A DNA stretch of 64,000 nt, taken from NCBI RefSeq assembly GCF_001677475.2, contig NZ_CP012498.1; one strand, given 5' to 3'. This stretch comes from Escherichia coli. Its GTDB lineage: Bacteria; Pseudomonadota; Gammaproteobacteria; Enterobacterales; Enterobacteriaceae. Below, one piece after another: positions 15,001 to 21,000 of the stretch. The stretch's first letter is position 1; each line of letters begins with the position of its first letter. Position numbers: made by a program.

Positions 15001-18000
15001 CCCGATCACGGATATTTGCTGGAGCTGCATTTTCCCTCTCTCGTTGGGCAGCACAAAAGTGAGCCAGGGGAAGGTGCCGGATACCGCAAACCCGTCAATG
15101 CCGATCCAGTTCTGCCCGGCGCCTCCCCCTGTTTTTAAACGTATCGGGCTGGCTATTGGTTACTGGGAGCCGATGGCCCTGACGGATGTCACCCGCTCAC
15201 CGGGATGCATGGTTAATCTGGGGTTCAGTCTGCCGGAATTCGGGAAAACGGCACAGGGTACGGCTAAAAAAGAAGATAAACAGGTGAACGGGGCGTTCTA
15301 TCACGTTCACTGGTACAAATACCCGCTGACGTACTGGCTGAATATCATCACGTCGCTGGGGTGCCTGGAAGGCGGAGACCTGGATATTGCCTATCTGTCA
15401 GAAATTGACCCTACCTGGACGGACAGCAGCCTGACCACCATCCTCAACCCGGAGGCGGTCATCTTTGCAAATCCGATAGCACAGGGAGCCTGTGCGGCGG
15501 ATGCCATTGCCAGTGCCTTTAACAAGCCGCTGGATATTCTGTTCTGGTGTGCCGGTTCGCAGGGCAGTATGTATCCGTTTAATGGCTGGGTGAGCAATGA
15601 ATCCAGCCCGTTGCAGTCATCCCTGCTGGTCAGTGAGCGGATGGCATTTAAGCTCCACCGTCAGGGCATGATAATGAACACTATCGGCGTGGATGTGGCC
15701 GTCTGTTATGAATATCCGTCTCCCATACTTCCCAAAGCGCGCTGGCGTTATCAGATGGTAAATATGTACCCGGACAGCGGACAGTGCCATCCGTTCGGAC
15801 GCAGTGTGATGCGCTGGGAGACGGGAAAAAATCCGCCCAACACAAAGAAAAACTTCGGCTACCTGATGTGGCGTAAACGTAACTGTGTGTTCCTGTAAGT
15901 CATGTTAATCAATAAGAGGATCGATTATATGAAGGTGTGGGTAATAAGAAATAAACACGCAGATGACTTCAGAAAAATATGTCTTCTGTTTATCCGGTTA
16001 ACGAGCAATGTATTAAAGCTGTTTCCTTTTGCTATGGTGATGTGCTCTGTGGTGTGGTTTTATTTTTGCCCTGAATATATTCTCTCAGACATTGTTAATG
16101 ACTGGCATGATGCAGATACACTGGAAAAAATAGGGCTTGTCAGACTGTATCTGAAGACGTCTTTTATTCTTACAGTGGTGGGCGTTGTTATTTCATATCT
16201 TTCTTCAGATAAGTTTATACCCGTTAAGCGCAGGAAATGAGTCTGATGGTTATCATAAATATAACAGTGTGTGCATGTGTACAATATAAGTAAAGGTGCG
16301 TTATGGGATTTTTCTCATTTTTACGAAAGATAAGTAATAAAGAAAAAGGGGTTTTTATCAGTGAGGAGCATTGGTTCTCACTGCTGGAAAAGGTGAGTGC
16401 TTTTGATGAGGTCAGACAATGGGCTGAAAGTAATGGTGGGGCATATTATCCTCTGCTGGAGTGTCGTCGGCTTACAGACAGTGAAGATGTCAGGAAATCA
16501 GAGGATATACTGAACCGACTGGAGTTTATCGACAGAAGGTTTCGGGAATTCATCAGCATTATGTCTGAACATATTAATAATGATAAAACTAAATCCATGT
16601 GGGAGAGGAATTTGTCTGAATATCCACCGAAAAAAATATACCAGGTCCGGAGAGAGGGAGAACATCTGTCATTAAAAAATTACGGTGATGATATTACTCT
16701 GAACAGAGATACCGCCGTGGCTACGGTGCAGATTACTGTCAGCAGAAAATGCATTACTCAGGAAGAAATGGATGAATTATATGCATTGTCTGAGAGACTG
16801 AAAGAAAAGTGCGCCGGTAATTAAATTATATCACTGTGCCGGGAGATGATATGAGCCGGAAAATATTTGTACTTTTTGCCCTGACCACAGGACTGTTTAT
16901 TTCTGCCCATGCTTCGGAAAATGTGAATACACCCGAAAACCGCCAGTTCCTGAAGCAGCAGGAAACACTGAGTCAGCAGTTGCGTGAGAAGCCGGACACA
17001 CAACTGCAGGCATGGGCAGAACAGCAGGTCAGGGCGAATCCCCTTCAGCATGCCGATAACCAGTTTCTCGATGAACTGGTCCGTAAACAGCAGGCTGCTC
17101 AGAAAGACAAACCACAGCAGGGGGCCGTGTATTTTGTGTCGTTCTCCATTCCCGAAGAGGGACTGAAACGGATGCTGGGAGAAACCCGGCACTACGGCAT
17201 TCCGGCCACACTGCGGGGCATGGTGAACAATGACCTGAAGACTACCGCTGAAGCCGTGTTGTCTCTGGTAAAAGATGGCGCGACCGATGGTGTTCAGATC
17301 GACCCGACGTTGTTTTCACAGTACGGCATCCGCAGCGTGCCGGCCCTGGTGGTGTTCTGCAGCCAGGGGCACGACATCATCCGGGGAAATCTGCGCGTCA
17401 GGCAGGCGCTGGAAAAAGTGGCCGCCACGGGAGACTGCCGGCAGGTGGCTCAGGGACTGCTGGACGGCACCGGGGATAAGCCGCAATGAGTTTACCTGCC
17501 GGGTATTACCGGATTGACCCGGACATCCGTGCACTGGTGGCCGCGATGAACGTTCACGGATTCCGTACATATGCCTCCTGTCAGGGACATGGTTTCCCGG
17601 TCACAAAGCTGCTGCCTTATATTGCCTTTGCCTGTCCGGTAAAAATGGCTGCCCTTCTTGAGCAGCGACTGCGGCAGGATGCTGAATCAGCAATACCACG
17701 TCTGACATGGGGATGGTCGGTGAAGGGGGCTTTTAACAGTGACCTTCAGCTCTGTTTCCGGCTTCAGCCGGAAGGTCCTCATTGCTGGTATCACCGGTAC
17801 TGTCGTCGTTCACTGCGTGCAGACTTCAGGACGCTGATATTGTTACTGAAGTCGTTATCTGAGTAGTAATCCCGGTACGCCAGGAAGCTCCATACACCAA
17901 AATCAACACCGTTCTGAAGTTGAGATGACATCACTTCATTCTCCATTTGGTTCAGATTATGAAAGAAAAGATAAATACCTTTTTCAGGTCTCTGAATTTT

Positions 18001-21000
18001 AATGACTCCGGAAAACCGTGCAATATTTGTGCAATTGTTTTTTTTCTGAGCTTTTCTGTGTTTGCAGACAGCAACAGTGATTACCGGGCAGGTTCCGATT
18101 TTGCCCGTCAGATCCAGGGGCAGGGTATTGGCAGTATTCAGAATTTTAATCCGCAGGAGAGTATCCCGGGGTATAACGCGAACCCGGATGAGACGCAGTA
18201 TTACGGTGGGGTGACTGCCGGCGGGGATGGCGGTCTGAAAAATAACGGCACCACACAATGGGCAACCAGTGAAACCGGCAAAACCATCACAGAATCCTTC
18301 ATGAACAAGCCGAAAGACATTCTGTCACCGGATGCGCCGTTTATTCAGACCGGCAGGGATGTGGTGAACCGGGCTGACAGCATCGTGGGAAACACCGGAC
18401 AGCAGTGCAGTGCGCAACAGATAAACCGCAGTGAATTCACCAACTATACCTGTGAGCGGGATACGATGGTTGAGGAATATTGTTCCAGAACCGCCAGTAT
18501 CACAGGGGACTGGAAATACACGGATGAATATCGTGAGGTGACGATACCGCACTCACAGTTCCGGTTCAGTATGAACGGGCTGAAACTGGCGTTCAGTGTC
18601 ACGGCTCCGGTAACCGGTACAGTGGAAAGTGCATCATTGTCTGTATACGCCGCTTTTTTCTTCCTGAACTCTCGTTATACCTTCATGAATTCAACGTTCA
18701 ATGTTGGCCTGGCAAACGGGCAGTCGGGGACTTTCCCTCTGTCCGGGGCAACAGGTTTGCAGGTGACACAGGGGCAGGTACTGACCGGCAGTGGCTGTAC
18801 TGCTAACGGTAACTGCCTTTCTGGCGGGAACGGTGACCAACAGGTTTATGAGAAACTGGCCAGCGGCGCCTCCACCTTTACGCTGAAACTCAGGATGAAG
18901 GTCCGTGATAAAGAATGGGTTCCACGAGTGGAGTGGGTGGAGAGTTGTCCGTTTAATAAAGCGGATGGCGTGCTGAAAGGCACTGAGTGTTCAGAGCCGG
19001 GTGGTACGAAAACAGGTGTGATGGAAGGTAAACCCTGGAGCATCACACAGGCATGCTGGGCATACCGGGATAAATATGTCACGCAGTCGGCAGATAATGG
19101 CACCTGTCAGAAATATGTCGATAATCCGGCCTGTACGCTGGCCTCACGTCAGTGCGCGTTTTATTCCGATGAGGGAAGCTGTCTGCATGAGTATGCCACA
19201 TACTCCTGCGAGTCCAGAACATCCGGGAAGGTGATGGTCTGTGGTGGTGATGTCTTCTGTCTCGATGGTGAATGTGATAAGGCGCAGAGCGGAAAAAACA
19301 GTGATTTTGGTGAGGCCGTTTCACAGCTGGCGGCACTGGCCGCCGCAGGTAAGGATGTTGCCGCCCTGAATGGTGTGGATGTCAGGGCTTTCACGGGCGA
19401 GGCGAAATTCTGCCGTAAGGCTGCAGCCGGCTTCAGTAACTGCTGTAAGGATGGCGGCTGGGGGCAGGATGTGGGGCTGGCTGAATGTAACAGTGAAGAA
19501 AAGGCGCTGGGAAAGGCGAAGGACAACAAACTGACGGTGAGTGTGGGTGAGTTCTGCTCCCGGAAAGTGCTGGGTGTCTGTCTGCAGAAAAAGCGCAGTT
19601 ACTGCCAGTTTGATTCGAAGCTGGCGCAGATAGTCCAGCAGCAGGGGCGCAACGGACAGTTGCGTATTGGTTTTGGCAGCGCAAAAAGTCCTGACTGCCG
19701 GGGGATCACCGTGGATGAACTGCAGCGTATTAAGTTCGACCAGCTGGACTTCACTAACTTCTACGAAGACCTGATGAATAACCAGAAAATCCCGGATAAT
19801 GGTGCGCTGACCGAAAAAGTGAAAGAGCAGATTGCCGGTCAGCTGAAACAGGTGGGGCAGTAAGGTCGGGAAAATAATGAAAGTCATATTCACGTCGAAT
19901 CGTCTTGTTGATTTTCTTATCCGGCTTGTTATTACAGCAATTGTCATTTCCCCGGTAATTATCTGGTCATGGAATACGGTAAAAGAAACCACGGTGGGCG
20001 GGATACTTGCTGCTGCTTTCGTTATTCTTTACTCCGGTGAGCTCCTGTTTATTCTGTATTTTTGTTTTTCTGCACTGGCTGACCTGCAGAAACCTGATGA
20101 AAGAAAAAGTGATGAAAGGAATGAAGATGAATAAAGCATTACTGCCACTGTTACTCTGCTGCTTTATTTTTCCGGCGTCAGGAAAAGATGCAGGCTGGCA
20201 GTGGTATAACGAGAAAATAAATCCGAAGGAAAAAGAAAATAAACCAGTCCCTGCGGCTCCCCGTCAGGAGCCGGATATTATGCAGAAACTGACTGCGCTG
20301 CAGACGGCAACAAAGCGGGCGCTGTACGAAGCCATTCTGTATCCCGGCGTGGATAATTTTGTGAAATATTTCCGGCTGCAGAATTACTGGACTCAGCAGG
20401 CCGGGCTTTTCACCATGAGTGCCAGAAAGGCCATGCTGGCACATCCCGAACTGGACTATAACCTGCAGTACAGCCATTACAACGGTACGGTACGGAACCA
20501 GCTGGCGGCAGACCAGGCGCAGCAGCGACAGGCCATTGCCAGACTGGCAGAGCATTACGGCATCATGTTTTTTTACCGTGGGCAGGACCCCATCGACGGG
20601 CAACTGGCGCAGGTCATTAATGGCTTCCGGGATACGTATGGTCTGAGTGTTATTCCCGTTTCCGTGGATGGCGTGATTAATCCGCTGTTGCCGGATTCCC
20701 GGACTGACCAGGGGCAGGCGCAGCGCCTCGGCGTGAAATATTTCCCGGCCATGATGCTGGTAGACCCGAAACAGGGCAGTGTTCGCCCGTTATCATACGG
20801 CTTTATTTCGCAGGACGACCTGGCAAAACAGTTCCTGAACGTTTCTGAAGACTTTAAACCGAATTTTTAACCAAAGGATATATATGCATACAGGGGATTT
20901 GTGTTTTTTTACAGGTGCCAGCCTGTTTATCGTGGGGGGTATTTCTTTACAGGACCAAATAATAAAGGAGTTTATCTGCTGAGCTCGTTTGTCTTCTTTG

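What the first reader, a model, noticed from the sequence alone, without database searches (positions are those of the whole stretch)
17947..19863. TraN with divergent central region and unusually long N-terminal leader
The N- and C-terminal parts match F TraN as recalled, but the middle (roughly residues 190-340) differs, and the predicted leader before the conserved DSNSDYRAG is about 36-40 residues. The TraN central domain is the part reported to determine recipient outer-membrane receptor specificity, so this allele may have a distinct recipient range.
Basis: partly seen in the sequence, partly recalled or inferred. Interest (0 to 1): 0.3.

Follow-up and report, generated by a model that had tools for sequence, protein, structure and literature searches.

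The report
R100-type TraN with swapped signal peptide
This is an ordinary F-plasmid conjugation adhesin gene (traN) of the well-studied R100 type, predicted to dock onto the recipient's OmpW protein; its only oddity is a twice-as-long export signal, which about 4% of sequenced traN-bearing plasmids also carry.

Summary
ORF 17947-19863 (+) is an intact traN. Its centre is unrelated to F TraN (19% identity over residues 171-325), and 36 residues (from ATG 17959) or 40 (from TTG 17947) precede DSNSDYRAG.

The central "tip" is not a new allele:
- It is 92.9% identical in protein to the R100 tip, which defines TraN-alpha1 (OmpW receptor; Low et al. 2022).
- It is 97.4% identical in protein to a tip type whose coding DNA sits in about 480 PLSDB plasmids.
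- Its coding DNA is 100% identical in five PLSDB plasmids.
- It passes NCBI's R100-type equivalog model and fails the F-type one.
- The predicted tip superimposes on the solved pSLT TraN tip (PDB 8x7n; TM 0.96, 1.2 Å).

The exact 634-aa protein is already in NCBI, on 45 contigs.

The long leader is a real alternative signal peptide. It lies in an AT-rich segment that replaces the canonical MKRILPLILALVAGMAQA, and homology to R100 and F resumes at the Ala(-1) codon. It occurs in 145 PLSDB plasmids, always in traN, joined to alpha1, F-type or a pSLT-like tip. Its hydrophobic core is invariant and its N-terminal extension drifts.

Verdict: known kind, low interest.

The parts
17959..19863 (+). 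traN coding sequence (634 aa plus stop). An alternative in-frame TTG at 17947 would give 638 aa.
   Evidence: ORF. PGAP start in pCFSAN004180G, which is 98.9% identical in DNA. The ATG is conserved in 9 of 9 leader variants; the codon 4 positions upstream is ATG in 6 of them and TTG here. NCBIfam NF009011 scores 1317.7 bits against a cutoff of 1063.
17959..18066 (+). Alternative 36-aa Sec-type signal peptide, MKEKINTFFRSLNFNDSGKPCNICAIVFFLSFSVFA. The n-region is residues 1-20 (net charge +2), the hydrophobic core is about 21-35, and V and A sit at positions -3 and -1.
   Evidence: Hydropathy maximum 2.9 at residues 23-31, against 3.2 for the F leader. No DNA homology to the F or R100 leader; homology resumes at the GCA Ala(-1) codon, 18064-18066. 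Codons 24-36 carry only synonymous variants, while codons 1-23 carry 12 nonsynonymous and 3 synonymous variants.
17896..18075 (+). AT-rich module (31-33% GC against 50-65% in the flanks) that carries the traN start and leader. It replaces the trbC-traN overlap seen in F and R100.
   Evidence: Present at 92-98% DNA identity in 145 PLSDB plasmids and always under traN. GC profile.
18067..18468 (+). N-terminal part of the conserved base domain (residues 37-170).
   Evidence: 93.3% identical to R100-like TraN, 88.8% to F and 93.3% to the TraN of E. coli M15 plasmid A.
18469..18933 (+). Variable tip domain (residues 171-325), TraN-alpha1 (R100-1) type.
   Evidence: Protein identity: 92.9% to the R100 tip, 97.4% to pMRSN346355_61.1, 47.7% to pSLT, 19.4% to F, 17% to pKpQIL and 26-30% to MV1/MV3. 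AlphaFold pLDDT is 83-94 across this region. Foldseek gives TM 0.96 and rmsd 1.2 Å to PDB 8x7n_A, a TraN tip with the pSLT-type sequence.
18934..19860 (+). C-terminal cysteine-rich base domain (residues 326-634). It includes the Pfam PF06986 match at residues 340-584.
   Evidence: 95.1% identical to R100-like TraN. Pfam match. The mature protein has 24 Cys, the same number as R100-like TraN.
17486..17866 (+). orf126, a conserved hypothetical gene inserted between trbC and traN. It is absent from F and R100.
   Evidence: No Pfam or NCBIfam hit. Homologous ORFs occupy the same position in pMRSN346355_61.1 and in the other plasmids that carry the long leader.
17791..17931 (-). Relic (46 codons) of a divergently oriented small gene. 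The gene is intact in pCFSAN004180G, where it encodes 72 aa with CxxC...CxxC followed by a hydrophobic tail.
   Evidence: Where pCFSAN004180G has 162 bp, the window has 20 bp. The first 7 codons are shared.
16851..17489 (+). trbC, the upstream neighbour. In F and R100 its stop codon overlaps the traN start; here it does not.

Best explanation
The gene encodes a full-length F-type mating-pair-stabilisation protein, TraN, of the alpha1 (R100-1) structural class. After Sec export and cleavage after Ala36, the cysteine-rich base anchors it in the donor outer membrane. The beta-sandwich tip then binds OmpW on the recipient, which stabilises mating pairs. This differs from F TraN, which uses OmpA.

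The 36-aa leader is an alternative signal peptide. It arrived with an inserted module between trbC and traN, made up of orf126, a small antisense gene and an AT-rich segment. That module replaced the canonical 18-aa leader up to the cleavage site.

Shown here: gene integrity, class membership by sequence and fold, and the leader's distribution and conservation pattern. Inferred: OmpW binding (from 93% tip identity to the experimentally tested R100-1 allele), and cleavage at A36|D37 (from the -3/-1 rule and from the fact that the mature N-terminus ADSNSDYRAG is shared with F and R100).
For: Class membership:
- Region-wise identities to the seven published reference variants.
- NCBIfam R100-type equivalog NF009011 scores 1317.7, above its cutoff of 1063. 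F-type NF009010 scores 931.5, below its cutoff of 1106.
- The tip-coding DNA is at least 90% identical in 1,405 PLSDB plasmids and 100% identical in 5.
- The tip model is confident (pLDDT 83-94) and superimposes on the solved alpha2-type tip 8x7n (TM 0.96).
- Published experiments tie the R100-1 tip to OmpW (PMC9246713, sections read; bioRxiv 10.1101/2023.02.09.527952).

Leader:
- The breakpoint falls at the Ala(-1) codon.
- It occurs in 145 plasmids, all in traN, in frame, with 142 of 145 predicted conjugative.
- The same leader is fused to F-type, alpha1 and pSLT-like mature proteins.
- The hydrophobic and cleavage regions carry only synonymous changes.
- The hydropathy and charge profile fits a Sec signal.
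- The exact protein is already named TraN in NCBI.
Against: - No experiment covers this allele.
- 11 tip residues differ from R100, and single-residue changes at the TraN-OmpW interface are known to alter species specificity.
- No dedicated signal-peptide predictor was available.
- There is no clear Shine-Dalgarno sequence upstream of either candidate start (upstream sequences), and the translational coupling to trbC seen in F is lost.
- The AlphaFold model is poor outside the tip (mean pLDDT 53.6).
Confidence: 0.88

Rival explanations
1. The tip substitutions (11 against R100, 4 against the common pMRSN346355-type tip) give this allele a recipient range different from characterised TraN-alpha1. 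That could mean a different receptor or a shifted OmpW species specificity.
For: Substitutions T176S, V211A, T245S, D257G, Y259F, P288S, H289G, R294Q, K295Q, S299K and V301A. Alpha1 and alpha2 differ in their use of C. rodentium OmpW, and a single OmpW residue decides it.
Against: The tip is 93-97% identical to alleles spread across E. coli, Klebsiella, Shigella and Salmonella plasmids. The fold is the alpha type. Low et al. assign receptor by tip structure and use a >=90% similarity rule.
Confidence: 0.08
2. The leader swap damaged traN. The insertion removed the native start and signal, so the 36-aa N-terminus is an annotation artefact and TraN is poorly made or not exported. The plasmid would then transfer inefficiently in liquid culture.
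For: There is no obvious ribosome-binding site, and coupling to trbC is lost. No canonical internal start lies closer to the hydrophobic core. The n-region drifts almost neutrally.
Against: The ORF is kept in frame in all 145 plasmids, across E. coli, E. albertii, Shigella, Klebsiella and Cronobacter hosts. The ATG is invariant in 9 of 9 variants. The hydrophobic core and cleavage region are under purifying selection. The downstream 598 codons are intact and all 24 Cys are retained.
Confidence: 0.07
3. The extended n-region has a function of its own. For example it might slow or redirect export, as the extended signal peptides of autotransporters do, or it might hold regulatory signals for the divergent small gene.
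For: The leader is twice the usual length, is conserved as a unit and is always linked to the same upstream module.
Against: Variants in codons 1-23 are mostly nonsynonymous (12 against 3), which indicates weak constraint. By inspection there is no resemblance to the autotransporter extended-signal motif. In the window the divergent gene is itself deleted, yet the leader persists.
Confidence: 0.05

Closest known systems
TraN of R100 / R100-1 (TraN-alpha1; receptor OmpW)
   Same: The mature protein is 94.1% identical and the tip 92.9% identical. It has the same length (598 aa mature) and the same 24 cysteines. It meets the same NCBIfam equivalog, NF009011.
   Different: The signal peptide is 36 aa instead of 18 aa and unrelated in sequence. 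There are 35 substitutions in the mature protein, 11 of them in the tip. The gene is not overlapped with trbC, because orf126 and a gene relic lie between them.
TraN of pCFSAN004180G and related 215-242 kb IncFIA/FIB plasmids from bovine and food E. coli
   Same: 98.9% DNA identity. The long leader is the same apart from K4N. The tip is identical and the gene neighbourhood is the same.
   Different: Three mature-protein substitutions (D88G, A407S, S447N). Those plasmids keep the intact 72-aa antisense gene that is deleted in the window.
TraN of F (TraN-gamma; receptor OmpA)
   Same: The base domains are 82-89% identical, and the mature N-terminus is also DSNSDYRAG.
   Different: The tip is only 19% identical. 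The window's protein scores below the cutoff of the F-type equivalog model.
TraN of pSLT (TraN-alpha2; tip structure PDB 8x7n)
   Same: The tip has the same beta-sandwich fold (TM 0.96, rmsd 1.2 Å), and the published receptor, OmpW, is the same.
   Different: The tip is 48% identical and has length differences. pSLT carries an HNH endonuclease gene at the trbC-traN junction and has the short leader.
Long-leader TraN of the E. coli FDAARGOS_448 plasmid and of M15 plasmid A
   Same: They carry the same 36-aa leader, at 92% and 97% identity.
   Different: In the FDAARGOS_448 plasmid the mature protein is 99.5% identical to F TraN. In M15 plasmid A the tip resembles pSLT only loosely: 54% identical to pSLT and 45% to R100.

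Membership tests
F-type TraN (Pfam PF06986 / TIGR02750) | Match to the family profiles above their curated cutoffs | tested here: met
   PF06986 scores 264.6 bits against a cutoff of 23. TIGR02750 scores 606.8 against a cutoff of 422.
F-type TraN (Pfam PF06986 / TIGR02750) | At least 20 cysteines, the criterion used by Low et al. 2022 | tested here: met
   24 Cys in the mature protein, at positions conserved with R100-like TraN. The criterion is quoted.
F-type TraN (Pfam PF06986 / TIGR02750) | Position in the tra operon between trbC and trbE/traF | tested here: met
   ORF map of the window and the PGAP annotation of the 98.9%-identical locus.
F-type TraN (Pfam PF06986 / TIGR02750) | Cleavable N-terminal signal peptide that leads to outer-membrane localisation | tested here: inconclusive
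   The hydropathy, charge and -3/-1 residues fit, and the core is conserved. No trained predictor was run and there is no experimental evidence.
TraN-alpha1 (R100-1 type) | >=90% amino-acid similarity to R100-1 TraN over >=75% of its length (rule of Low et al. 2022) | tested here: met
   94.1% identity over the whole mature protein and 92.9% over the tip. The proxy sequence is 100% identical to the R100 record's own N-terminal 300 aa.
TraN-alpha1 (R100-1 type) | NCBI equivalog model for the 616-aa R100-type TraN | tested here: met
   NF009011 scores 1317.7, above its cutoff of 1063. The F-type model NF009010 (931.5 against 1106) and the model with a 651-aa profile, pKpQIL's TraN length (NF009009; 745.9 against 1368), both fall below their cutoffs.
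TraN-alpha (structural class) | Tip fold superimposable on the alpha-class tips | tested here: met
   The AlphaFold tip has pLDDT 83-94. Foldseek against the solved tip 8x7n_A, whose sequence is of the pSLT type, gives TM 0.96 and rmsd 1.2 Å.
TraN-alpha (structural class) | Mating-pair stabilisation depends on recipient OmpW | not testable with these tools
   This needs conjugation assays into ompW-deleted recipients. It is inferred from homology to the tested R100-1 and pSLT alleles.

The most novel reading that the evidence does not exclude
The AT-rich leader module may be a portable 'signal-peptide cassette'. It recombines onto different TraN types at the signal-peptidase cleavage site and could change how much TraN is made or exported. 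Separately or together, the 11 tip substitutions could shift which species' OmpW is recognised. Either effect would give these large bovine and food E. coli plasmids a transfer range different from R100-1's.
Probability: 0.08. Interest if true: 0.3.

Novelty: already known. Interest (0 to 1): 0.08.

Why it matters
It matters little. Assigning the allele to TraN-alpha1 allows a published prediction: OmpW-dependent, efficient transfer into E. coli and K. pneumoniae, for a large IncF plasmid family found in cattle and food E. coli. The alternative leader shows that the trbC-traN junction is a recombination hotspot, carrying orf126, HNH endonuclease genes, a small antisense gene or IS66 elements in different plasmids. 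It also shows that signal peptide, base and tip of TraN are shuffled independently. This is a minor point about mosaic evolution of the tra operon and does not indicate a new mechanism.

Tried and rejected
- I looked for a closer start codon that would give a normal-length signal. No in-frame ATG, GTG or TTG lies between codon 1 and the hydrophobic core. The in-frame CTG (codon 12) and ATT (codon 23) are not conserved among variants.
- I considered a lipoprotein signal. Neither leader cysteine sits in a lipobox, and C21 is Arg in one variant.
- I searched for the leader peptide in front of other genes, using tblastn at E<=10 against all PLSDB plasmids. All 145 records that matched do so under traN, so no donor gene was identified.
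- The promoter and terminator scan of 17400-18200 found nothing above the shuffled expectation.
- I tried to link the leader to an experimentally conjugative plasmid, pKSR100. Accession LN624486 is not in the collection, and the two papers found did not help.
- A literature search turned up no paper that discusses this leader.
- The full-length AlphaFold model is unreliable outside the tip (11-sequence alignment, mean pLDDT 53.6), so I drew no conclusions about the base domain.
- The R100 reference record has traN split into two ORFs. I therefore used an R100-like Shigella flexneri plasmid as proxy, after confirming 100% identity over the first 300 aa.
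Full report
**1. Checking the observation**

The window has an uninterrupted ORF at 17947-19863 on the + strand, 638 aa from a TTG. The nearest public relative is traN of E. coli plasmid pCFSAN004180G, at 98.9% DNA identity. There NCBI's PGAP pipeline starts the gene at the ATG that corresponds to window 17959, giving 634 aa. Pfam F_T4SS_TraN matches at E=1e-78, and TIGR02750 passes its cutoff.

The neighbours are traC, trbI, traW, traU, trbC upstream and trbE, traF, trbA, traQ, trbB, traH, traG downstream, so this is the tra operon of an F-like plasmid.

I aligned the protein with F TraN and with the seven reference variants of the published classification. Identity to F, numbered from the ATG, is as follows:

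| Region | Residues | Identity to F |
|---|---|---|
| N-terminal base | 37-170 | 88.8% |
| Centre (tip) | 171-325 | 19.4% |
| C-terminal base | 326-634 | 82.2% |

DSNSDYRAG begins at residue 37 (residue 41 from the TTG), against residue 19 in F and R100.

**2. What the central region is**

Low et al. 2022 (PMC9246713; sections read) showed that the variable centre of TraN is a beta-sandwich 'tip' that picks the recipient's outer-membrane receptor. They defined four classes:
- alpha: R100-1 and pSLT, receptor OmpW
- beta: pKpQIL and MV2, receptor OmpK36
- gamma: F, receptor OmpA
- delta: MV1 and MV3, receptor OmpF

I fetched all seven references, plus an R100-like Shigella plasmid. The proxy was needed because the R100 record has traN split into two ORFs. 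The proxy is 100% identical to R100's own first 300 residues.

Identity of the window's tip to each reference:

| Reference | Tip identity |
|---|---|
| R100 | 92.9% |
| pMRSN346355_61.1 type | 97.4% |
| pEC276_1 | 83.2% |
| pSLT | 47.7% |
| MV1 | 29.7% |
| MV3 | 25.8% |
| F | 19.4% |
| pKpQIL and MV2 | 17.4% |

Over the whole mature protein the window is 94.1% identical to R100-type TraN. That is inside the >=90% rule Low et al. used to assign a variant.

Three further lines of evidence agree:
- NCBI's own equivalog models separate the types. The 616-aa R100-type model NF009011 scores 1317.7 (cutoff 1063). The F-type model NF009010 scores 931.5, below its cutoff of 1106.
- An AlphaFold model is confident across the tip (pLDDT 83-94, residues about 170-370). 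Its only significant PDB match is 8x7n_A, at TM 0.96 and rmsd 1.2 Å. That chain has the pSLT-type tip sequence.
- The tip-coding DNA is 100% identical in 5 PLSDB plasmids, 95-99% identical in 481, and 90-95% identical in 919, across Escherichia, Klebsiella, Salmonella and Shigella.

The exact 634-aa protein is already in NCBI (ANO92520.1 and others, on 45 contigs) under the name TraN. It clusters at 90% identity with the 616-aa R100-type proteins.

The 'divergent central region' is therefore the well-characterised TraN-alpha1 tip. Its expected partner is OmpW, with efficient transfer into E. coli and K. pneumoniae and poorer transfer into C. rodentium. That receptor assignment is an inference from homology. 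Eleven tip residues differ from R100, and four differ from the common pMRSN-type tip.

**3. What the long leader is**

I aligned the DNA of the trbC-traN junction across plasmids.
- In F and R100 the trbC stop codon overlaps the traN start, and the leader is MKRILPLILALVAGMAQA.
- In the window, trbC is followed by orf126 (17486-17866), then a short spacer, then traN.
- Homology to F and R100 is absent from the whole leader and resumes at the GCA codon for Ala(-1), 18064-18066. This is the predicted signal-peptidase cleavage site.
- The segment that carries the start and leader has 31-33% GC, against 50-65% in its flanks.

This same segment occurs in 145 PLSDB plasmids, out of 3,727 with a traN match (about 4%). 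It is always annotated as part of traN and always in frame. 142 of the 145 plasmids are predicted conjugative. The hosts are E. coli, E. albertii, Shigella, Klebsiella and Cronobacter.

The leader is not tied to the tip:
- In the E. coli FDAARGOS_448 plasmid it precedes a mature protein 99.5% identical to F TraN.
- In E. coli M15 plasmid A it precedes a tip only 45% identical to R100 and 54% to pSLT.
- The window's base domains share 18 of their 35 non-R100 residues with the M15 protein, so the gene is a mosaic of leader, base and tip.

Across nine leader variants the ATG is invariant. Codons 24-36, the hydrophobic core and the VFA cleavage motif, carry only synonymous changes (4). Codons 1-23 carry 12 nonsynonymous and 3 synonymous changes. 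The peptide has a +2 n-region, a hydropathy peak of 2.9 (F leader 3.2), and V and A at positions -3 and -1.

This is the signature of a working Sec signal peptide whose extra N-terminal 18 residues are tolerated rather than needed. No alternative canonical start lies nearer the core. There is no lipobox.

Four caveats remain. There is no clear Shine-Dalgarno sequence. Coupling to trbC is lost. No trained signal-peptide predictor could be run. Nothing has been tested experimentally.

**4. Surroundings**

The trbC-traN junction is variable among F-like plasmids:
- nothing in F and R100
- orf126 plus an HNH endonuclease gene in pMRSN346355_61.1
- an HNH endonuclease gene in pSLT
- a 127-aa ORF in MV2
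- orf126 plus a divergent 72-aa gene (CxxC...CxxC followed by a hydrophobic tail) in pCFSAN004180G

The window keeps only the first codons of that small gene, because 162 bp are reduced to 20 bp. One relative has an IS66 element ending about 12 nt upstream of the traN ATG.

**5. Verdict**

The tip does set receptor specificity, and it differs from F's. It is the known R100-1/alpha1 allele class, not a distinct one.

The leader is an established minority variant of the TraN signal peptide. I found no paper that discusses it, but it has been annotated in public records many times.

This is an ordinary, already-known gene. The small residual interest lies in the modular shuffling of leader, base and tip. 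Low-probability possibilities are that the leader alters TraN expression or export, or that the tip substitutions fine-tune which species' OmpW is recognised.

Noticed in passing
window 16303-16824 (+): A 173-aa ORF between traU and trbC has no Pfam or NCBIfam match. The corresponding stretch of pCFSAN004180G has no listed gene in the PLSDB table. R100 and pSLT carry a different ORF of about 100 aa at this position.
   Followed up: partly
window 17486-17866 (+): orf126 is a conserved hypothetical gene inserted between trbC and traN. It has no family match. Homologues sit at the same place in many F-like plasmids, sometimes followed by an HNH endonuclease gene (pMRSN346355_61.1).
   Followed up: partly
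window 17791-17931 (-); L001 5767-5985 (-): This is a relic of a divergently oriented small gene. In pCFSAN004180G the gene is intact and encodes 72 aa, with two CxxC pairs followed by a hydrophobic tail. In the window a 162-bp stretch is reduced to 20 bp, and only the first 7 codons match.
   Followed up: partly
L002 (NC_002134.1, R100) 19987-21837: The reference R100 record has traN split into two ORFs of 300 and 311 aa, apparently by a frameshift near the tip/base boundary. The PLSDB gene table therefore lists no traN for R100.
   Followed up: partly
L021 (NZ_CP010214.1, E. coli M15 plasmid A) 68-1951 (-): This TraN carries the same long leader, but its tip is only 45% identical to R100 and 54% to pSLT. 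It may be an alpha-like tip subtype outside the seven published reference variants.
   Followed up: partly
L020 (NZ_AP025748.1) 1-610: IS66-family sequence (tnpA accessory gene) lies immediately upstream, and homology to the other leader variants begins about 12 nt before the traN ATG. The upstream in-frame start codon is removed but the ATG is kept.
   Followed up: no
window 21199-21534 (-): A 111-aa hydrophobic ORF lies on the opposite strand between trbA and traQ. This is the position of artA in F. It is annotated as hypothetical in pCFSAN004180G.
   Followed up: no
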